The notes: generated from the letters alone by a model not told the origin. Positions 22,106 to 29,793 are shown, counted from the first letter of the stretch. The stretch is 64,000 bases of DNA from a bacterium (GCA_030428125.1 JAUIBF010000001.1:490383-554382), one strand, 5' to 3'. Numbers and translations are program-made.

Positions 22106-24916
22106 GTGAGTGAGATTAAGCTAAATCAAAGTCAGCAAAAAGCAGTCGACCATATAAACGGCCCATTGCTAGTTGTGGCTGGTGCAGGAACCGGCAAAAC
22201 CAGTGTTATAACAGAGAAAATCAACGCACTTCTTGACCAAGAAATAAGCCCGTCATCTATTCTGGCTGTTACTTTTACAGAAAAGGCGTCGGCTGAGATG
22301 CAGGAGAGGATTCTGGAGCGCAGGTCTGGGCTGATGCTTGATTTGCCGATTATGACATACAACGGCTACGGCGACAGCATTTTGAAAGAATTTGGTGTTC
22401 ACATAGGGCTACCTAGAACCTATAAAGTCCTGACCCCACAAGCAGCCATCGTTTTCTTGCGTGAGCGAATCGAGAGCTTCAATCTAGATTATTTCCTGCC
22501 GCTAACTACAGTTCCAGATGCAATTATCGAAGATATTCTGAAGTATTTCTCTAAACTCAAACAAAACGTAGTCACCCCAGAAAAATACTTGGATTTTGTC
22601 AAGAAAATGCCAGAAGGTGACGTGCCAGAAAATACAGAAAAGCTAATGCACAAGCAATTAGCTGACGCTTACCGAACCTACATATCCTTATGCAGGAAAG
22701 AAAACGTCATAGACTATGATGATCAGATTTACTTGTCTATTCAATTGCTTCAAAAGCGACCAAACGTCCGACAAATCCTTCAGGAACGCTATCACACCGT
22801 GTTGGTTGATGAGTTCCAGGACACCAACCCCATGCAATCTATGTTGATAGATTTAATTGTGCCGGAGTCTCAGAATTTAGTCGTTGTAGGTGATGACGAC
22901 CAAGCAATCTACGGGTTCCGTGGTGCGACGATCAGTAACATTTTAAGTTTCAAAGAACGCTATCCGGACGCATCAGAAGTTGTTTTGAGCGAAAACTACC
23001 GCAGTCACCAATCAATTCTTGATGCTGCTTATAAGCTGATTCAGAACAATAACCCTAACCGTTTAGAGGCAAGCCTAGGGTTAAATAAGCGCCTAACCAG
23101 CGATCAACCAGGTTCCGACCCAGTGCTCAGACATTTTGCAGACCCTACCCAGGAGCTAGACTGGCTGGCCGAGAATATCAAATCCAAACTCGAAGCACAC
23201 CCCGATGAACAGAGTGTCAGCATAGCCGTACTTACGCGTAGCAACAACAGCGCAGAAGCCGTTCATCGAGCTCTAGATGCATACGACATCAAACACCGAG
23301 TTGTCGGCTTGAGTCCAGATCTCTACAGCCAGCCAGTTGTTCGAATGTTGATTGAGCTACTGCGGACTATTATCGAGCCAGACAACAACGCCAGTTTGCA
23401 TCACACACTTATTAGTGACTTGTTCGGCATCAGCAACTCCTTTGTATCACCATATGTTAAAAAAGCTCGCTACGAACACGACTCACTAGAAAATTTGCTA
23501 GAGGATACAGATGAAACTAAAGACGCCATTCAGCTCATTAGAAAGTATCGCGAACCAGCTGCCAGCGAATCGGTAGGACGTTTGCTGTGGCAATTACTAT
23601 CAGAGCTTGAATATTTAGACAAGTTACTAGAGCAGGCACAAACCAACAACAATTCAGCCCATGCTCTAGGTCACATCACGCAATTTTTCGACACCCTGAA
23701 GGAGTTTGAAAACATTGCAACTCAACCAACAGCTGTGCAGTACCAGCTGGCATTGCCTGCACTAATGGCAGCAGGGGAGTCTACAGATGACACCCTTCAG
23801 CTAACAGAGCAAGAAGTGATTGTAACCACCGTACACAAAGCCAAAGGTCTAGAGTGGGACACAGTATATTTACCAGGTCTAACAGAGCAAAAATTCCCAA
23901 TGTGGCGGCAGGGTGGTGGTATAGATTTGCCTGAGCAGCTACGCGATAACGACGTAAATGATACAGATGAACACTATTCTGAGGAGAGAAGGGTAATGTA
24001 TGTTGCACTAACACGTGCTCGCCAGAACCTGACGTTAAGCTTCTCTGACGGTCCTCGCAAACCTTCACGTTTTATTGACGAGATGTTCGGCGAAGGTGCA
24101 GCAGAGAGTACTGATTACACGGAGGCTACTGAAAGAAGAGTTCGCTTAGAGATTAGCGCAGACGATGTACCCAAAGTCCCGATTCCTGACTCTATTTACG
24201 ACGGCAAGCGCGTCAAACTGGACGTTACTAAGGCTCAGACTCTTCTCAACTGTCCACTAAATTTCTATTACAAATATATCCTAGAAACTCCTCGTGAACC
24301 TCGTCCATCTGCTGATTACGGAACGCGAATGCACGCATTTATTCAGGAAATCAACGAAGCACGTCATAAAAACTCCGAGTTACGTCCACTCCCAGAGATG
24401 TTGAAGGATTTAGAAAAAGGCTGGCACAAATCCGGCTACGCTAGCAAGACGCAACAAGAACGGGCGTTAAAGCAAGCCAAGCAAACTCTAACAACTTACT
24501 ACCAGCACGCTAAAGGTGCTGATGGTCCGATAGCTATTGAAGATCCATTTGCCGTAGAAATAGCCGAGGACATAATTCTAGATGGTCGAATTGACGCTGT
24601 CTATGCTGACGGTGACGACGTAGAAATCCGTGATTATAAGACAGGATATGCCGCTCGTGATGAAGAAGGGGCTAAGAAATTAGCCGGTAGCAGCAAACAG
24701 CTGGAGCTTTATGCACTGGCTTGGCTGACCAAAACCGGTAAATTGCCGTCCAAACTTAGCCTGCATTATGTTGATTCAGACGTGATTGGTTATGCCAACA
24801 AACGAGAATCTACTATTGAAAACCGCCGTACACAACTTATTAAAGCTGCTAATGATCTAAAGGATGGGCATTTTCCGCTAGGTAGTAGTCATACTTATTG
24901 CGTGCATCCCGAATAG
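22106..24916 (+). CDS. UvrD/PcrA-family helicase fused to C-terminal PD-(D/E)XK (AddB/Cas4-like) nuclease
   Basis: Walker A AGAGTGKTS, motif II VDEFQDT, GDDDQAIYGFRGA, VHKAKGLEW, ALTRAR; C-terminus DGRIDAVY...EIRDYKTG plus terminal Cys; GTG start. Confidence 0.85.
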   Translation: MSEIKLNQSQQKAVDHINGPLLVVAGAGTGKTSVITEKINALLDQEISPSSILAVTFTEKASAEMQERILERRSGLMLDLPIMTYNGYGDSILKEFGVHIGLPRTYKVLTPQAAIVFLRERIESFNLDYFLPLTTVPDAIIEDILKYFSKLKQNVVTPEKYLDFVKKMPEGDVPENTEKLMHKQLADAYRTYISLCRKENVIDYDDQIYLSIQLLQKRPNVRQILQERYHTVLVDEFQDTNPMQSMLIDLIVPESQNLVVVGDDDQAIYGFRGATISNILSFKERYPDASEVVLSENYRSHQSILDAAYKLIQNNNPNRLEASLGLNKRLTSDQPGSDPVLRHFADPTQELDWLAENIKSKLEAHPDEQSVSIAVLTRSNNSAEAVHRALDAYDIKHRVVGLSPDLYSQPVVRMLIELLRTIIEPDNNASLHHTLISDLFGISNSFVSPYVKKARYEHDSLENLLEDTDETKDAIQLIRKYREPAASESVGRLLWQLLSELEYLDKLLEQAQTNNNSAHALGHITQFFDTLKEFENIATQPTAVQYQLALPALMAAGESTDDTLQLTEQEVIVTTVHKAKGLEWDTVYLPGLTEQKFPMWRQGGGIDLPEQLRDNDVNDTDEHYSEERRVMYVALTRARQNLTLSFSDGPRKPSRFIDEMFGEGAAESTDYTEATERRVRLEISADDVPKVPIPDSIYDGKRVKLDVTKAQTLLNCPLNFYYKYILETPREPRPSADYGTRMHAFIQEINEARHKNSELRPLPEMLKDLEKGWHKSGYASKTQQERALKQAKQTLTTYYQHAKGADGPIAIEDPFAVEIAEDIILDGRIDAVYADGDDVEIRDYKTGYAARDEEGAKKLAGSSKQLELYALAWLTKTGKLPSKLSLHYVDSDVIGYANKRESTIENRRTQLIKAANDLKDGHFPLGSSHTYCVHPE

Positions 24917-24964: not shown

Positions 24965-25396
24965 ATGGCTAATAATGCATCTGTAGAGTTCAGGACTGGA
25001 GTTGCTGATCTTGATATGCATCTAAATGACGTTAGACCCTTTAGTCTATTCTTTAATTACGTCGTTGGGAGTTATCTAGAACGTCAAGCAAGCGAGCAAG
25101 AACAGGTAGCTGTCATGCCTACTCACATTACTGTAGCTCCATTTAATGATTTCGAACACGACCTGGCATATGACATCACTTCAGCCGTTGATTTAGAGCA
25201 CGGTCGAATGATTAGTGATGAATTCAAGCTTAAGCAAAAGTGGTTAGGTAGAGATCCGTACCAAACTCTTGGAATTGTTGATGCTGAAGACAGAGTTATT
25301 ATGGACAACGTAGGTAGAGCATACCTGGGTTCTTTGATTTTGTTGAAAGGGATGTATGAGGCTGCTCATAACCCCGATTTTCGTGGTACGAGCTAA
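24965..25396 (+). CDS. hypothetical protein
   Basis: 143-aa ORF downstream of the helicase; no motif recognised. Confidence 0.4.
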   Translation: MANNASVEFRTGVADLDMHLNDVRPFSLFFNYVVGSYLERQASEQEQVAVMPTHITVAPFNDFEHDLAYDITSAVDLEHGRMISDEFKLKQKWLGRDPYQTLGIVDAEDRVIMDNVGRAYLGSLILLKGMYEAAHNPDFRGTS

Positions 25397-25823
25397 TTCA
25401 ACAATTTAGTAATATTCTACTTTCTTAGACGTAATAGAGTAGCAAGAAACGACTCCCCGGCACCACGTTAGAAAAACAGGCTCTGCATCTGAATTAATTC
25501 ATATATACTTTTTTGGGGAGCTCGCTTTTAGCTCAAACAGTCCTCGGAAAGTCCAACAAAATAACCCACCCGCAACCAGGTTTTAGCCGGATGGGTATTA
25601 AGCAAATAATCATCACCATTGATTTTATCGATGATGACAATTTGTTCATCAACTTCATCTTAGGGTACTAATATCCAAGAGAATATACCCCCCCTTAATC
25701 GAATTAGGCCCAGGTTGCACTTAGTTATTAAAATTATACTTATCCACAAAAAATAAGATGTAACTAATTTTTGCGACAGTATTTGTTTGACAGTAAAGAG
25801 TTAATTATTTAAATTGTTAACGC

Positions 25824-26870
25824 ATGAGGGTTAAGCATAAATACAACGTAATTGACTTATTTTCTGGCATTGGAGGCTTCAGCAAGGGTTTTGAGAATGA
25901 AGGATTTGACATAAAACTTGGAATTGATAATTGGCCAATTGCTTTAAAAACATTCAAGACGAACCATAAAAATACCGAGATATTACTTGAAGATTTAACA
26001 AAAATAAAGAAAAATTATTATGAGGACCTACCATATAAGGTCGACATTATTATTGCAGGCCCTCCTTGCCAGGGATTTTCCATGGCAGGGAAGAGACAAG
26101 AAGACGATATACGTAATAGGCTTTTTAATGAGGTCGTTAGGGCTGCAAAATACACTAAAGCTCCTATTGTGATAATCGAGAACGTAGTTGGGCTAGTTTC
26201 AATGAAAGACATTGATGGAAATTCTGTCAAAGATAGAATAATTCATTCTTTGAAGGAAGTAGGTTACGACGTAGATTATAAAATTTTAACTGCTTCAGAT
26301 TATGGGGTGCCACAAAATAGAAGAAGAGTTGTGTTTGTGGCACATAAAAACAATAAGGCGTTTAGCTTTCCAAAAGAATCGGTAAAGAAAGTAACAGTTG
26401 GCGAAGCACTCGGTAACTTACCTGATGTAGAAAGTAAAAAATACACTAAACCTGAAAATAATTTCCAGCAATACTTAGAATCATCATCAAAAAAGATATA
26501 TAACCATACAAAAATGAACCACAGCAAAGCTGTTTCTGACCGTATTGCACTAGTTCCTGAGGGCGGGAATTGGCGAGATATACCGCCGGAGCATTATCGG
26601 GTAGGAGGAACTCATAGTAATAACTACCGTAGGCTCGATAGGTCAAAACCTTCAATAACAATTAAACATGCTACTAAGTCAATGATAATTCACCCAGTTT
26701 ACGACAGGGTAATAACTGCCAGGGAAGCAGCTAGGCTTCAATCTTTTCAGGATGACTTCTTCATTGAGGGTAGTAGCTTCGAACAGCATCAACAGCTTGC
26801 GAACGCCGTTCCGCCACTTCTTGGGGCGGCTATCGCAAAAGCTGTGAGGGAGTACATCGATAATGAGTAG
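25824..26870 (+). CDS. DNA (cytosine-5)-methyltransferase 1
   Basis: Motif I DLFSGIGGF, IV GPPCQGFS, VI ENV, VIII QNRRR, IX REAARLQSF, X NAVPPLL. Confidence 0.92.
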   Translation: MRVKHKYNVIDLFSGIGGFSKGFENEGFDIKLGIDNWPIALKTFKTNHKNTEILLEDLTKIKKNYYEDLPYKVDIIIAGPPCQGFSMAGKRQEDDIRNRLFNEVVRAAKYTKAPIVIIENVVGLVSMKDIDGNSVKDRIIHSLKEVGYDVDYKILTASDYGVPQNRRRVVFVAHKNNKAFSFPKESVKKVTVGEALGNLPDVESKKYTKPENNFQQYLESSSKKIYNHTKMNHSKAVSDRIALVPEGGNWRDIPPEHYRVGGTHSNNYRRLDRSKPSITIKHATKSMIIHPVYDRVITAREAARLQSFQDDFFIEGSSFEQHQQLANAVPPLLGAAIAKAVREYIDNE

Positions 26871-27846
26871 TAACGTTAAATTCATTGATCTATTTTGTGG
26901 GTTAGGTGGTTTCAGGATAGCCTTAGAAAATCTTGGGGGGACTTGTGTTTATAGCAGCGATAATGATAAGTATGTTCAAGACATATATAACCTAAATTTT
27001 GGAGAAATACCCGACGGAGATATAACTAAAGTCTCACCGAAAGAAGTTCCAGATCACGATATACTCTGCGCCGGTTTTCCATGTCAACCATTTTCTATAG
27101 GAGGATTACGTAAGGGCTTCTTAGACACCAGAGGAACCCTATTTTTCGATATTGAAAGGATTTTAAGGGCTAAAAAACCCAAGTCTTTTATTCTCGAGAA
27201 CGTAAAAGGCTTAACTAATCACGATGAAGGTAGAACTCTGGAAACCATACTGAGGACACTTGCTAAAACCGTTAACGGAAAGCCTTATGATCATGAAGGC
27301 AACTTAGGTTACGACGTATACTATAAAGTTTTAAATACAAAAGATTTCGGAATCCCACAAAACAGGGAAAGAATCTATATCATAGGAATTAAAAATTCAA
27401 AGAAAACTTTCGAGTTCCCTGCGACAAGCAGTAACAGTATGGGTCTGGATATATTGCTGTCTAAAACTACTAATAAGGAAGAGTACCGGGTGTCAACTAA
27501 CGTCTGTTCACAGATTCTGCATCATCTAGACTTAAAAAAAGATAGGTATTCAACCCTAATGGATGAACCATTAATAGCATACGAGGTCAGGCCTTCTAGG
27601 TGCTCATTTCGTCAAGATGGCGCAAGCCCTACTCTCACTGCAAAAATGGGAACCGGGGGTAATAACGTTCCTATTTATGTCCAAGAGATGAGAAAGTTAA
27701 CATTAAGAGAGTGTCTAGATTTGCAAGGATTCCCTGACAACTACGTATTTCCGGACAGGGGGATGCAAAGTTACAAACAGATAGGAAATAGTCTCACCGT
27801 ACCTGTTGTCGAGGCAATTGCGAGTAAGCTAATTCCGGTAATCTAG
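26863..27846 (+). CDS. DNA (cytosine-5)-methyltransferase 2
   Basis: Motif I DLFCGLGGF, IV GFPCQPFS, VI ENVKGL, VIII QNRERIYIIG, IX RECLDLQGF, X GNSLTVPV; 8-nt overlap with MTase 1. Confidence 0.92.
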   Translation: MSSNVKFIDLFCGLGGFRIALENLGGTCVYSSDNDKYVQDIYNLNFGEIPDGDITKVSPKEVPDHDILCAGFPCQPFSIGGLRKGFLDTRGTLFFDIERILRAKKPKSFILENVKGLTNHDEGRTLETILRTLAKTVNGKPYDHEGNLGYDVYYKVLNTKDFGIPQNRERIYIIGIKNSKKTFEFPATSSNSMGLDILLSKTTNKEEYRVSTNVCSQILHHLDLKKDRYSTLMDEPLIAYEVRPSRCSFRQDGASPTLTAKMGTGGNNVPIYVQEMRKLTLRECLDLQGFPDNYVFPDRGMQSYKQIGNSLTVPVVEAIASKLIPVI

Positions 27847-28592
27847 CGCTCCTTGCTAAGCTTATAAACGAGCTGATATTTCCCTTTACTTCGACCTGAC
27901 CCTGTAGTAACTATTAGTTTTTTTGTATTATTTGGTACAATCTCGTTATTAACTAGCAACCATGGAGCGTAATAAGGATCGTCAAACATTCCTATTCCAG
28001 AAAAAAACAGTGCCGAAATACTTTCGTTATTATTGGTTAAGTCTTCAATAATCTTATTGCTTAAAGCTTTTACCTTATTACAATATTCGAGATTTGATAT
28101 TTCTCCCGAAATACCATGATTGACCTCGAAGTAAGTTTTAAATTCTTCTTCTGTAGCACCCCAGCCCTTTATTACGTCAGTGTTCTTAACTAGCCCTTCC
28201 TGATTCTTGCAGTAAATTGAAGCTCCTGCACCTAGTTCTAAGTCTTTATATATCCTTTTAAACGCATCGGGGGAAATTTTTTGAATCGTAGAAGTATAGT
28301 CAGTGTTTAACTTAACGCTAATTCCACTTTCTGGGATCGGAAATACTCCGATTTTTTTAGCCTCGTCTTCATTAATATATTCTTTCAGATCACTTTTAGA
28401 TAAATTACTTGGCAATAACCCAAGATAAATATCTGATTTTGGCCTAACATTTCTCTTATGGACTTTGGAGTACTGAACAGTATTTACATGAACTGCTATG
28501 TAATTTCTATTGCCAAAAACAGACGGCACCAAGATCATGCCTTTATTAATAAGTTCCACTGATTCGACCTCATTTTCGTCCCCACTAATCAA
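27843..28592 (-). CDS. putative restriction endonuclease (second subunit or second enzyme)
   Basis: 249-aa ORF convergent with the MTases; stop codons overlap in CTAG; 8-nt overlap with the upstream nuclease candidate; shares an E/D...ISVK element (PESGISVK) with its neighbour. Assignment rests mainly on context. Confidence 0.45.
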   Translation of the reverse strand: MISGDENEVESVELINKGMILVPSVFGNRNYIAVHVNTVQYSKVHKRNVRPKSDIYLGLLPSNLSKSDLKEYINEDEAKKIGVFPIPESGISVKLNTDYTSTIQKISPDAFKRIYKDLELGAGASIYCKNQEGLVKNTDVIKGWGATEEEFKTYFEVNHGISGEISNLEYCNKVKALSNKIIEDLTNNNESISALFFSGIGMFDDPYYAPWLLVNNEIVPNNTKKLIVTTGSGRSKGKYQLVYKLSKER

Positions 28593-29313
28593 ATTGCATC
28601 TCCATGATATCCCTCTGTAATTTACCCCATTTGAATTGAATTTCTCCTCGTTTTTTTTCGGTACTATTCTTTTTATTTTCTAAATTTCTATTCCACGCTT
28701 GAAAAGTAAGCCCCCCCAAGCCAGGACAGGTAGACTTGCTAGATAAATATTCTATGGCTGTATCCATATCTACAATGTATCCATTAGACTTATCGCCATA
28801 ATATAAATAGTCGGCCTCCACTAAGTCGTCTTTTACTCCAACTTTTAAAACCCTTTTTAATATGTCTTCCTTGTGTAGATCTATGAATCTCTGAAAGTTA
28901 ACAATCTTATCCTTATGAAGCTTCTTAATTTGAGGAACCGACATCCTATCTACGGGATTACCCTTGCCGTCAAGTGTTAAGTCACCCCATATAAAAAATT
29001 TCAGATCATCACATACTGTTTGTGGTGCATTAAATTCAGATTTCAAAAATTCTACAAAATCCTCAATTGGCTCTTGGTGCACACTGTTGCCTGATCCTTT
29101 CTTGATGCTTACACCTAGCTTTTTATTCTTTACAGATATTTCAATATCTGCCTTCGAGCCACTGTTGGGCCTGGTGCATTTAATATTGTCAGCCAATCCA
29201 ATCTCGGGGAATAAGGCAATTACTATTCTTTTCAAATTGCTATTTAAGTTGTCGTAACTACAGTTCAATGCCGAAAGAAGCTGCTTTTCGTTTTCAAACC
29301 CAGTGATTTCCAT
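28585..29313 (-). CDS. putative type II restriction endonuclease (PD-(D/E)XK-like, MspI/HinP1I-like pattern)
   Basis: KADIEISVKNKKLGVSIKKGS resembles the D-x(n)-(N/S)-x-K catalytic arrangement, and the C-terminal ...KKRGEIQFKWG resembles what I recall of the MspI C-terminus. From memory only, not a database result. Confidence 0.5.
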   Translation of the reverse strand: MEITGFENEKQLLSALNCSYDNLNSNLKRIVIALFPEIGLADNIKCTRPNSGSKADIEISVKNKKLGVSIKKGSGNSVHQEPIEDFVEFLKSEFNAPQTVCDDLKFFIWGDLTLDGKGNPVDRMSVPQIKKLHKDKIVNFQRFIDLHKEDILKRVLKVGVKDDLVEADYLYYGDKSNGYIVDMDTAIEYLSSKSTCPGLGGLTFQAWNRNLENKKNSTEKKRGEIQFKWGKLQRDIMEMQFD

Positions 29314-29373
29314 AGAGTAATACTAACACAGTTGAGTGTAAATTATTTATTCGATAATATTTCTTAAGTATTT

Positions 29374-29793
29374 TCAATATTTATTCTGCATTATGTCTAG
29401 TTCATCTTGCAATTGGAATAGGTTTTTTCTTAGGTCTATTTCGCGCCAGGAGGTTAGTTTTCCTGCTACTTCAAGCGCTCTGCGCTCACCCCAGAGGCAG
29501 TCGTCGTCGTACCAGAGGAAGGGAACAGTCATATCAATCGCATCTGTTTTAGCAAGCGACCAAGCCGTCGGCTTAAATTTCTTAAGCCACGGGGTTAAAT
29601 CCTCATCTGAAGCTCGATTCACATACTCAACAGCGTGTTCAGGATCTCCATGCATGCAGTGTGTAGTCAGCCAATAAACTTCAAAATTATCAGCTACATA
29701 CTTGATAAAGTCAGCAGCTCCTTCAGCCAGATTATTTTCGTTGGCTAGCAGAACCCCATCAATATCCAAAAAAATCCTCGGCAACCTCTTCAT
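29374..29793 (-). CDS. small HAD-superfamily hydrolase-like protein
   Basis: Motif I FLDIDGVL at N-terminus and WYDDD near C-terminus; G+C resembles the core genome. Confidence 0.5.
   Translation of the reverse strand: MKRLPRIFLDIDGVLLANENNLAEGAADFIKYVADNFEVYWLTTHCMHGDPEHAVEYVNRASDEDLTPWLKKFKPTAWSLAKTDAIDMTVPFLWYDDDCLWGERRALEVAGKLTSWREIDLRKNLFQLQDELDIMQNKY

What the first reader, a model, noticed from the sequence alone, without database searches (positions are those of the whole stretch)
25824..29313. Four-gene restriction-modification module: two overlapping m5C methyltransferases facing two overlapping small nuclease candidates
Both methyltransferases have complete motif sets (I, IV, VI, VIII, IX, X) but different target-recognition regions, and they overlap by 8 nt. 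Convergent to them are two ORFs of 242 and 249 aa that also overlap by 8 nt. They share a D/E...ISVK element (KADIEISVK and PESGISVK).

Two m5C methyltransferases plus two nuclease subunits is the layout I recall for heterodimeric type IIT systems recognising asymmetric sites (Bpu10I/BbvCI). The alternative is two nested, independent type II systems.

The 242-aa protein resembles what I recall of MspI/HinP1I-type catalytic and C-terminal segments. That comparison is from memory, not a search. The module is markedly AT-rich (25-40% G+C in spot counts), which suggests horizontal acquisition.
Basis: partly seen in the sequence, partly recalled or inferred. Interest (0 to 1): 0.55.

Follow-up and report, generated by a model that had tools for sequence, protein, structure and literature searches.

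The report
Split two-subunit AciI-type restriction-modification system
This is a real four-gene bacterial defence module, a relative of the commercial restriction enzyme AciI (cuts CCGC) whose nuclease and methylase are each encoded as two separate genes instead of one; it is a variant of a known enzyme family, not a new kind of system.

Summary
The four ORFs exist exactly as described: two C5 cytosine methyltransferases (M1, M2; 8-nt overlap) facing two small ORFs (RA 242 aa, RB 249 aa; 8-nt overlap). RA and RB are the N- and C-terminal halves of the AciI nuclease. They are 37% and 30% identical to residues 12-257 and 306-525 of the 527-aa R.AciI of Arthrobacter citreus. AciI is a published type IIT enzyme (CCGC), single-chain with two catalytic domains and a composite M1~M2 methylase. 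AlphaFold models of RA and RB (pLDDT 94) match only HinP1I and MspI in the PDB, and each keeps an invariant E...D...SxK site. M2 is 48% identical to the C-terminal half of M.AciI, with a near-identical recognition segment. M1 is a non-orthologous C5 methylase in that slot. The same cassette occurs in distant bacteria and archaea, with R-R and M-M gene fusions in some lineages, which argues against two nested independent systems. CCGC/GCGG is the second most depleted tetranucleotide in the window (O/E 0.58). The Bpu10I/BbvCI comparison holds for layout only, not ancestry. Ordinary biology, with a modestly novel split architecture.

The parts
25787..25815 (+). promoter-like site (TTGACA-17-TAAATT) ending 8 nt before the M1 start codon
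   Evidence: 10 of 12 consensus matches. This is a consensus match only: fewer sites were found in the region than in shuffles.
25824..26870 (+). M1: C5 cytosine DNA methyltransferase (348 aa). Presumed to protect one strand. Not orthologous to the N-terminal half of M.AciI.
   Evidence: PF00145 E 9e-71; PADLOC MTase_II E 2.3e-110; only 27-29% core-level identity to M.AciI. Orthologues occupy the same slot in archaeal, Firmicutes and Caldisericota cassettes and are fused to M2 in L016 and L025.
26863..27846 (+). M2: C5 cytosine DNA methyltransferase (327 aa), orthologue of the C-terminal half of the composite M1~M2.AciI
   Evidence: PF00145 E 1.7e-91; 48% identity, E 5e-102 to residues 387-701 of the 703-aa M.AciI; full-length match to M.HhaI E 8.5e-72. 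The M2-type methylase is present in every methylase-bearing cassette.
27574..27681 (+). target-recognition segment of M2 (about residues 238-273, ...RPSRCSFRQDGASPTLTAKMGTGGNNVP...)
   Evidence: Near-identical to the M.AciI C-terminal half (RPSKVGFSSTGISPCLTAKMGTGGNNVP). Differs from the M.HhaI recognition loops.
27843..28592 (-). RB: nuclease subunit B (249 aa, TTG start), homologue of the C-terminal half of R.AciI
   Evidence: 30% identity, E 3e-18 to R.AciI residues 306-525; PADLOC PDLC03402 positions 306-525, E 9.5e-16; AF2 pLDDT 94.0. The only fold hits at E <= 0.005 are HinP1I and MspI (E 3.9e-4 to 4.7e-3).
28311..28433 (-). RB active-site segment D54 ... S92-V-K94 (plus E8 at 28569-28571)
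   Evidence: Invariant in 56 homologues. E-D-S-K-K is kept in 116 of 116 single-chain clusters.
28585..28603 (-). RA stop / RB start junction: GGAG, 7 nt, then TTGATTAG (8-nt overlap). Likely translational coupling.
   Evidence: Sequence read directly. The same tight junctions occur in homologous cassettes.
28585..29313 (-). RA: nuclease subunit A (242 aa), homologue of the N-terminal half of R.AciI
   Evidence: 37% identity, E 4e-42 to R.AciI residues 12-257; PADLOC PDLC03402 positions 12-257, E 1.7e-39; AF2 pLDDT 93.9; fold hits HinP1I E 2.9e-10 (TM 0.62-0.65) and MspI E 2.4e-6.
29101..29148 (-). RA active-site segment D56 ... S69-I-K71 (plus E9 at 29287-29289)
   Evidence: Invariant in 64 homologues. 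hhalign places them on HinP1I positions E18, D62, Q81 and K83 (those catalytic roles are recalled, not read here).
29370..29399 (-). weak promoter-like site upstream of RA (TAGACA-18-GAAAAT)
   Evidence: 9 of 12 matches, not significant on its own.

Best explanation
This is a type IIT restriction-modification cassette of the AciI family in which every activity is encoded as a separate polypeptide.

Proposed mechanism (inferred from AciI, not shown here):
- RA and RB are made in roughly equal amounts from overlapping, translationally coupled genes.
- They assemble into a heterodimer equivalent to single-chain R.AciI.
- Each subunit has a HinP1I/MspI-type PD-(D/E)XK fold with one active site (E...D...SxK) and cuts one strand of an asymmetric site.
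- The site is most likely 5'-CCGC-3'/5'-GCGG-3', cut C^CGC / G^CGG to leave 2-nt 5'-CG ends.
- M1 and M2 each C5-methylate one strand of that site to protect host DNA. M2 is the orthologue of the C-terminal half of M.AciI. M1 is a non-orthologous methylase recruited to the other slot.
- The R and M operons converge with overlapping stop codons and no controller protein.

Shown here: homology to R.AciI and M.AciI, the fold, the invariant catalytic residues, the conserved cassette, the gene fusions and the CCGC depletion.

Inferred: heterodimer formation, which subunit cuts which strand, the exact site and cut positions, and which cytosines are methylated.
For: (1) Direct homology to the characterised enzyme.
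- RA is 37% identical (E 4e-42) to R.AciI residues 12-257, and RB is 30% identical (E 3e-18) to residues 306-525.
- R.AciI here is P0283: 527 aa, on A. citreus plasmid CP053690.1, named AciI by UniRef.
- The 527-position PADLOC model PDLC03402 is hit by RA and RB in the same two halves.

(2) The AciI locus has a 703-aa double C5 methylase, a 75-aa HTH protein and the 527-aa nuclease. This matches the published description of AciI as a single chain with two distinct catalytic domains, plus M1~M2.AciI and C.AciI (PMC4081073).

(3) M2 is 48% identical to the C-terminal half of M.AciI, with a near-identical recognition segment.

(4) Both AF2 models (pLDDT 94) hit only HinP1I and MspI at E <= 0.005. 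hhalign maps RA E9/D56/S69/K71 onto HinP1I positions E18/D62/Q81/K83.

(5) The catalytic sets are invariant in both families and in 110 of 116 (RA) and 116 of 116 (RB) single-chain clusters.

(6) The cassette RA-RB facing two C5 methylase genes (the M2-type one next to RB) recurs in Nanoarchaeota, Woesearchaeota, Methanobrevibacter, Clostridia, Bacteroidota, Campylobacterota and Caldisericota. RA-RB is fused in 8 loci and M1-M2 in 2 loci.

(7) CCGC was predicted before the test (note).
- In the window it is depleted to 124 observed against 214 expected (z -7.8, rank 2 of 136).
- It is the only depleted NCGN word, and it is depleted in all eight 8-kb bins.
- In 241 kb of other host flanks O/E is 0.64 (P 1e-5).
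Against: - Identity to R.AciI is only 30-37%, a range in which restriction specificity can drift.
- M1 is not the orthologue of the N-terminal half of M.AciI, so protection of the second strand rests on inference.
- ACCGC is depleted beyond CCGC itself (13 observed against 36 expected), which could mean a longer or flank-sensitive site, or a second system.
- Several hosts carrying the cassette show no CCGC depletion (for example L003, L005, L014).
- No cassette-free control genome was analysed.
- In Sulfurovum other GC-rich 4-mers are equally depleted.
- No heterodimer model or biochemical data are available.
- RA and RB show no significant sequence similarity to each other.
Confidence: 0.72

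Rival explanations
1. Same AciI-family split type IIT system, but with a diverged recognition sequence: a related asymmetric site, or a longer one containing CCGC such as ACCGC/GCGGT, rather than plain CCGC.
For: Only 30-37% identity to R.AciI. M1 belongs to a different lineage from the AciI N-terminal methylase half. ACCGC is the most depleted pentamer in the window (13 observed against 36 expected).
Against: The M2 recognition segment is almost identical to that of M.AciI. The plain tetramer CCGC is itself strongly and uniformly depleted, while the other three NCCGC words are not depleted. CCGC is also depleted in other hosts.
Confidence: 0.18
2. Two nested, independent type IIP systems: M2 with a monomeric HinP1I/MspI-like RB, and M1 with a monomeric RA, each acting on its own palindromic 4-bp site.
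For: HinP1I and MspI, the only structural relatives, are described as monomers acting on palindromes (PMC4081073). RA and RB lack detectable sequence similarity to each other. In L025 RA and RB lie on opposite strands.
Against: RA and RB are one polypeptide in characterised R.AciI and in more than 100 clusters, always in the order RA-RB. M1 and M2 are fused in L016 and L025. RA and RB co-occur in essentially every locus. The palindromes CCGG and GCGC are enriched, not depleted, in the window.
Confidence: 0.03
3. A decayed system: the nuclease gene was split by a frameshift and is inactive, leaving two functional orphan methylases.
For: Degraded copies do exist elsewhere: RB is broken in M. ruminantium M1 (L005), and RA is broken or truncated in L019, L032, L034 and L035.
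Against: In the window both ORFs are full length relative to 64 and 56 homologues, with all invariant residues present. The split form is the commonest architecture (92 of about 250 scanned clusters). It has its own Shine-Dalgarno-like motif and start codon at the junction. All 120 listed word-index homologues of RA are 236-275 aa.
Confidence: 0.05

Closest known systems
AciI restriction-modification system of Arthrobacter citreus (type IIT, CCGC, cut C^CGC -3/-1; R.AciI 527 aa, M1~M2.AciI 703 aa, C.AciI)
   Same: RA and RB are homologous to the N- and C-terminal halves of R.AciI and keep both E...D...SxK active sites. M2 is orthologous to the C-terminal half of M.AciI with a near-identical recognition segment. 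Both systems have two C5 methylase activities. The host genome is depleted in CCGC.
   Different: The nuclease is two polypeptides, not one. The methylases are two polypeptides, not one. M1 is a non-orthologous C5 methylase replacing the N-terminal half of M.AciI. There is no controller (C) protein. The R and M genes converge, whereas in the AciI locus all genes are co-directional. Identity to R.AciI is 30-37%.
BbvCI / Bpu10I heterodimeric type IIT systems (two R subunits plus two m5C methylases)
   Same: The four-gene logic is the same: two different nuclease subunits, each presumed to cut one strand of an asymmetric site, and one m5C methylase per strand. The evolutionary logic also parallels that proposed for BbvCI (PMC6326814): a chimaera of two palindrome-cutter half-sites, here C^CGG (MspI) and G^CGC (HinP1I) giving C^CGC.
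   Different: There is no sequence or fold relationship. No Pfam family matches RA or RB, and BbvCI structures are absent from both fold-search lists. The predicted site is 4 bp with a 2-nt overhang, against 7 bp with a 3-nt overhang.
HinP1I (G^CGC) and MspI (C^CGG), monomeric type IIP endonucleases
   Same: They share the fold (the only PDB matches). The catalytic residues align in the same order (E on helix 1, D at the start of strand 2, S/Q/N-x-K on strand 3). The cut geometry is expected to be the same (after the first base, leaving a 5'-CG overhang).
   Different: HinP1I and MspI work as single-site monomers on palindromes with one methylase. Here two diverged copies are obligatorily paired (or fused) and act on an asymmetric site with two methylases. 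Sequence similarity is below Pfam and phmmer detection.

Membership tests
AciI family (R.AciI-like type IIT endonuclease) | Sequence homology to R.AciI over both halves of the protein | tested here: met
   RA against residues 12-257: 37% identity, E 4e-42. RB against residues 306-525: 30% identity, E 3e-18. PADLOC PDLC03402 (527 positions) is hit in the same two halves.
AciI family (R.AciI-like type IIT endonuclease) | Two distinct catalytic domains, each with an intact active site | tested here: met
   RA E9/D56/S69/K71 and RB E8/D54/S92/K94 are invariant and are kept in R.AciI and in 110 of 116 and 116 of 116 single-chain clusters. The two-domain description comes from PMC4081073.
AciI family (R.AciI-like type IIT endonuclease) | Single polypeptide chain | tested here: not met
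   There are two ORFs with an 8-nt overlap. The split is the common natural state. This makes it a variant of the family, not a typical member.
AciI family (R.AciI-like type IIT endonuclease) | Recognition of CCGC and cleavage C^CGC / G^CGG | not testable with these tools
   Indirect support only: CCGC O/E 0.58, rank 2 of 136 in the window, and the M2 recognition segment conserved with M.AciI.
AciI family (R.AciI-like type IIT endonuclease) | Partner methylase orthologous to both halves of M1~M2.AciI | tested here: inconclusive
   M2 is orthologous to the C-terminal half (48% identity). M1 is not orthologous to the N-terminal half (27-29%, core only). The true N-half type is found in Bacteroidota cassettes.
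AciI family (R.AciI-like type IIT endonuclease) | Controller (C) protein | tested here: not met
   There is no HTH-like ORF in the 427-nt region upstream of M1 or next to RA. The AciI locus has a 75-aa HTH_3 protein.
Bpu10I/BbvCI heterodimeric type IIT family | Sequence or fold homology of the R subunits to Bpu10I/BbvCI subunits | tested here: not met
   No Pfam family matches RA or RB at E <= 0.1. No PDB sequence hit. BbvCI structures are absent from both Foldseek lists.
Bpu10I/BbvCI heterodimeric type IIT family | Four genes: two m5C methylases plus two different R subunits | tested here: met
   The resemblance is in layout only.
HinP1I/MspI structural family of PD-(D/E)XK endonucleases | Shared three-dimensional fold | tested here: met
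   RA: HinP1I E 2.9e-10 and 4.1e-8 (TM 0.62-0.65), MspI E 2.4e-6. RB: HinP1I E 3.9e-4, MspI E 4.7e-3, TM 0.35-0.42. There are no other hits at E <= 0.005.
HinP1I/MspI structural family of PD-(D/E)XK endonucleases | Catalytic E / D / (Q,N,S)-x-K at equivalent positions | tested here: met
   For RA, hhalign over 219 columns (E 8e-4) maps E9/D56/S69/K71 onto HinP1I positions E18/D62/Q81/K83 (HinP1I sequence verified). The catalytic roles of those HinP1I residues are from my recollection, because the structure papers were not held. For RB only the pattern and its position in the predicted secondary structure agree; hhalign is not significant.
HinP1I/MspI structural family of PD-(D/E)XK endonucleases | Detectable membership of the curated sequence families | tested here: not met
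   No Pfam or NCBIfam match at E <= 0.1. A profile search of PDB sequences does not reach HinP1I or MspI.
HinP1I/MspI structural family of PD-(D/E)XK endonucleases | Acts as a single-site monomer on a palindrome | not testable with these tools
   The genetic evidence points the other way: obligatory RA-RB pairing, gene fusions and two methylases.

The most novel reading that the evidence does not exclude
The split form is a natural heterodimeric AciI. Its two HinP1I/MspI-fold subunits are separately encoded, strand-specific half-enzymes. The family then records how monomeric 4-bp palindrome cutters (C^CGG, G^CGC) gave rise, by duplication, divergence and fusion, to an asymmetric-site enzyme (C^CGC). 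None of the papers I could search describes this relationship or the two-subunit form. If true, inactivating either subunit would give a natural route to CCGC-specific top- or bottom-strand nickases.
Probability: 0.5. Interest if true: 0.5.

Novelty: new variant of a known kind. Interest (0 to 1): 0.38.

Why it matters
For annotation: RA, RB and several hundred relatives are labelled 'hypothetical protein' and match no Pfam or NCBIfam family. Linking them to AciI and to the HinP1I/MspI fold names a widespread dark family: 699 clusters at 50% identity, found in bacteria and archaea.

For enzymology: a naturally two-subunit AciI would parallel BbvCI. It offers subunit-level engineering of 4-bp nicking enzymes and a test case for how monomeric restriction enzymes evolve asymmetric specificity.

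For the host: it predicts m5C at CCGC/GCGG and explains the strong CCGC avoidance in this genome.

It does not change any general principle of restriction-modification biology.

Tried and rejected
Searches that gave nothing:
- Pfam, NCBIfam and PDB sequence searches with RA and RB, single sequences and profiles.
- BLASTP and hhalign of RA against RB found only a short N-terminal helix match at 15% probability. Paralogy of the two subunits therefore rests on the shared fold, not on sequence.

Ideas rejected:
- Frameshift artefact, because all listed homologues are stand-alone proteins of about 245 aa.
- Inferring GCGC specificity for M2 from its strong match to M.HhaI, because the recognition loops differ.

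Attempts that failed:
- M1 specificity from PDB relatives (3g7u, HaeIII, 8yf3): only the catalytic core aligns. The paper search for 8YF3 was not followed up.
- The literature gave neither the AciI sequence nor its fold. The HinP1I structure papers were not held. One search was swamped by starch-synthase 'SSII' papers.
- The host organism could not be named: the window's proteins are on record only from an unnamed Logan assembly and an NCBI contig of 558 kb.
- No tRNA gene or flanking repeat marks the cassette boundaries.
- Promoter-like sites are no more frequent than in shuffles.
Full report
**1. Observation**

The four ORFs are present exactly as reported:
- M1, 25824-26870 (+), 348 aa.
- M2, 26863-27846 (+), 327 aa.
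- RB, 27843-28592 (-), 249 aa, TTG start.
- RA, 28585-29313 (-), 242 aa.

M1 and M2 overlap by 8 nt (ATGAGTAG). RA and RB overlap by 8 nt (TTGATTAG), with GGAG 7 nt upstream of the RB start. The two operons converge and share 4 nt (CTAG) at their stop codons.

Both methylases match the C5 cytosine methylase family end to end (PF00145, E 9e-71 and 1.7e-91; TIGR00675).

The cassette has 37.6% G+C against 42.2% for the rest of the window, which is within the lowest 0.8% of same-sized windows.

**2. The nuclease candidates as first seen**

RA and RB match no Pfam or NCBIfam family and no PDB sequence, and they are not similar to each other by BLASTP.

The first informative result was PADLOC model PDLC03402 ('REase_II', 527 positions). 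RA matches positions 12-257 (E 1.7e-39) and RB matches positions 306-525 (E 9.5e-16). The two ORFs therefore correspond to the two halves of one longer protein.

This is not a frameshift artefact:
- All 120 listed homologues of RA (of 134 found) are 236-275 aa, and nearly all of the 87 homologues of RB are about 250-270 aa.
- The two families come from the same contigs and carry adjacent locus tags.
- Both window ORFs are full length and hold every invariant residue of their families.

**3. Conserved cassette and gene fusions**

Context look-ups and a scan of GTDB species genomes gave 39 loci. I scored their ORFs with profiles of RA and RB and with the window's M1 and M2 sequences.

- The arrangement RA-RB facing two C5 methylase genes (the M2-type one next to RB) recurs in Nanoarchaeota, Woesearchaeota, Methanobrevibacter, Clostridia, Bacteroidota, Campylobacterota, Ignavibacteriota, Dojkabacteria and Caldisericota.
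- RA and RB are fused into one ORF of about 500-557 aa (stop to stop) in eight loci.
- M1 and M2 are fused into one protein of about 690 aa in two loci (L016, L025).
- In L025 RA and RB lie on opposite strands, which shows they can be expressed as separate subunits.
- Several copies are decayed, for example RB in M. ruminantium M1 (L005).

**4. Fold and active sites**

AlphaFold2 models built on the family alignments are confident: RA pLDDT 93.9 and RB 94.0.

Foldseek against the PDB returns the same three structures for both, and nothing else at E <= 0.005:
- RA: HinP1I (2fkc E 2.9e-10; 1ynm E 4.1e-8; TM 0.62-0.65) and MspI (1sa3 E 2.4e-6).
- RB: HinP1I (E 3.9e-4 and 1.1e-3) and MspI (E 4.7e-3), TM 0.35-0.42.
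- BbvCI, whose structure has been solved (PMC6326814), does not appear in either list.

I verified my recollection of the HinP1I sequence against PDB chain 1ynm_A (247 of 247 residues). hhalign then aligned the RA family to HinP1I over 219 columns (E 8e-4). It places RA E9, D56, S69 and K71 on HinP1I positions E18, D62, Q81 and K83. The catalytic roles of those HinP1I residues are from my recollection, because the structure papers were not held.

RB has the same pattern (E8 on helix 1, D54 just before a strand, S92-V-K94 on a strand). Its sequence-level alignment to HinP1I is not significant, so the RB assignment rests on the fold.

In RA the conserved counterpart is S69-I-K71, not the coincidental 'EISVK' at residues 58-62.

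**5. Identification as AciI**

HinP1I cuts G^CGC and MspI cuts C^CGG. I therefore noted the hypothesis that a pair of such modules would suit the hybrid asymmetric site C^CGC/G^CGG of AciI (note).

The type II review (PMC4081073) describes AciI as a single-chain type IIT enzyme with two distinct catalytic domains. It is accompanied by a composite double methylase, M1~M2.AciI, and a controller, C.AciI.

A homologue search with a fused Sulfurovum protein then returned P0283. This is a 527-aa protein on Arthrobacter citreus plasmid CP053690.1 that UniRef names AciI (E 5e-81, 99% coverage). A Sulfurovum protein (P0238) is also named AciI. The length of 527 aa equals that of the PADLOC model.

Direct comparisons:
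- RA is 37% identical (E 4e-42) to R.AciI residues 12-257.
- RB is 30% identical (E 3e-18) to R.AciI residues 306-525.
- Motifs such as GSGNSVHQEP, SGISVK and TTGSGRSKG are shared.

The A. citreus locus encodes an HTH protein, a 703-aa double C5 methylase, a 75-aa HTH_3 protein and the 527-aa nuclease, as published.

**6. The methylases**

- M2 is 48% identical (E 5e-102) to the C-terminal half of M.AciI. The recognition segment is nearly identical: RPSRCSFRQDGASPTLTAKMGTGGNNVP against RPSKVGFSSTGISPCLTAKMGTGGNNVP.
- M2 also resembles M.HhaI over its full length (E 8.5e-72), but its recognition loops differ.
- M1 shows only core-level similarity (27-29%) to either half of M.AciI.
- The true counterpart of the M.AciI N-terminal half is the alternative methylase found in the M1 slot of Bacteroidota and Campylobacterota cassettes (33% identity, E 3e-42, conserved recognition segment).
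- The window's M1 is therefore a non-orthologous replacement. Its fusion to M2 in L016 and L025 supports a functional partnership.
- Which strand and which cytosine each enzyme modifies remains an inference.

**7. Independent test of the site**

I used a maximal-order Markov expectation on both strands.
- In the window, CCGC/GCGG is the second most depleted of 136 tetranucleotides: 124 observed against 214 expected, O/E 0.58, z -7.8. Simulated z values have sd 1.0 and a minimum of -2.7.
- It is the only depleted NCGN word (CCGG O/E 1.32, GCGC O/E 1.26).
- It is depleted in all eight 8-kb bins.
- In 241 kb of flanks from other cassette-bearing hosts O/E is 0.64 (P 1e-5). CCGC is the only non-palindrome among the five lowest O/E words.
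- In 57 kb around the single-chain homologues it is 3 observed against 38 expected.

Caveats:
- Several hosts show no depletion.
- No cassette-free control genome was analysed.
- Sulfurovum also lacks GCGC and GGCC.
- ACCGC is depleted beyond CCGC itself in the window (13 observed against 36 expected).

**8. Family size and architectures**

An exhaustive profile search finds 699 clusters at 50% identity (532 at E <= 1e-10). Domain parsing of the roughly 250 fetched proteins P0208-P0456 gives:
- RA alone: 92 clusters.
- RA-RB: 116 clusters of 450-600 aa, including R.AciI (RA 9-259, RB 264-527).
- RA-RA-RB: 27 clusters of about 780 aa.

The catalytic sets are kept in 110 of 116 (RA) and 116 of 116 (RB) single-chain clusters. 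In the triple form the middle RA-like domain has lost them.

**9. Regulation and mobility**

- A promoter-like TTGACA-17-TAAATT ends 8 nt before the M1 ATG. This is a consensus match only.
- No controller-like ORF is present.
- No tRNA gene or flanking repeat marks the boundaries.
- The low G+C and the cross-domain distribution at 36-58% identity support horizontal transfer.

**10. Verdict**

This is a genuine type IIT restriction-modification cassette of the AciI family, in a fully split form: two nuclease subunits and two methylases.
- It works like AciI, and in genetic layout like BbvCI/Bpu10I.
- It is not a member of the BbvCI/Bpu10I family.
- Structurally it belongs with HinP1I and MspI.
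- CCGC is the most likely recognition site, at roughly 0.6-0.7 given family membership.
- Novelty is modest. The enzyme family and the system type are known. The two-subunit architecture, the swapped M1 and the HinP1I/MspI ancestry of AciI are not described in any paper I could search, although REBASE may already list such systems as putative.

Noticed in passing
L024, L026, L030, L031, L033, L042 (Sulfurovum and other Campylobacterales); for example L042 10001-11485: Single-chain AciI homologues (about 494 aa, catalytic residues intact) sit in a conserved chromosomal context: an AAA+WHD ATPase upstream and UPF0102 and YajQ downstream. No DNA methyltransferase lies within 5-10 kb. CCGC is almost absent there (0 observed against 15 expected in 21 kb), but so are GCGC (0 against 18) and GGCC (12 against 64). 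Either the cognate methylase is elsewhere in the genome or this is a solitary nuclease; not resolved.
   Followed up: partly
proteins P0256-P0282, P0328-P0336 (771-822 aa; metagenomic): A triple-domain RA-RA-RB architecture in 27 clusters. The first RA domain and the RB domain keep full catalytic sets (27 of 27 each). The middle RA-like domain has lost them (QRSFE, ADSFE and similar), which suggests a non-catalytic extra DNA-binding or effector domain and possibly a different specificity.
   Followed up: partly
L010 7430-8380, L017, L018, L019, L021, L027, L034, L037-L039 compared with window 25824-26870: The first methylase slot of the cassette is swapped between lineages. Bacteroidota and Campylobacterota carry the true M.AciI N-half type (33% identity, conserved recognition segment). 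The window, the archaeal cassettes and the Clostridia and Caldisericota cassettes carry an unrelated C5 methylase. The nuclease subunits and M2 stay orthologous throughout.
   Followed up: partly
whole window 1-64000: GATC is the most depleted tetranucleotide (236 observed against 473 expected, O/E 0.50), which suggests a GATC-specific restriction pressure on this genome. ACCGC is the most depleted pentamer (13 against 36), beyond what CCGC depletion alone explains.
   Followed up: no
L005 6749-7521 (Methanobrevibacter ruminantium M1, CP001719.1); also L019, L032, L034, L035: Decayed copies of the cassette. RB is broken into 193 and 64 aa in M. ruminantium M1, although it is intact (257 aa) in a related metagenomic contig (L006). 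RA is truncated or split in four other genomes while the methylases persist.
   Followed up: partly
L025 280-4200 (Caldisericota MAG): Here RA and RB lie on opposite strands (RA on +, RB on - together with a fused 691-aa M1~M2). The two nuclease subunits are therefore transcribed independently in this lineage.
   Followed up: no
L041 (Arthrobacter citreus plasmid CP053690.1, 9871 bp): The AciI system itself lies on a small plasmid of 33% G+C next to a resolvase. NCBI labels R.AciI 'hypothetical protein'; only UniRef names it AciI. CCGC is not depleted on the plasmid (13 observed against 10.9 expected).
   Followed up: partly
window 22106-24916 (+) and 24965-25396 (+): Immediately upstream of the cassette lies a 936-aa UvrD-type helicase with a C-terminal PD-(D/E)XK nuclease domain (AddA/PcrA-like; Pfam families listed), followed by a 143-aa ORF with no family match.
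   Followed up: no
window 26260-26327 and 27305-27372: A 68-nt direct repeat at 75% identity lies between M1 and M2. It is the conserved stretch encoding GYDV.YK.L...D(Y/F)G(V/I)PQNR in the two paralogous methylase genes, not a mobile-element repeat.
   Followed up: yes
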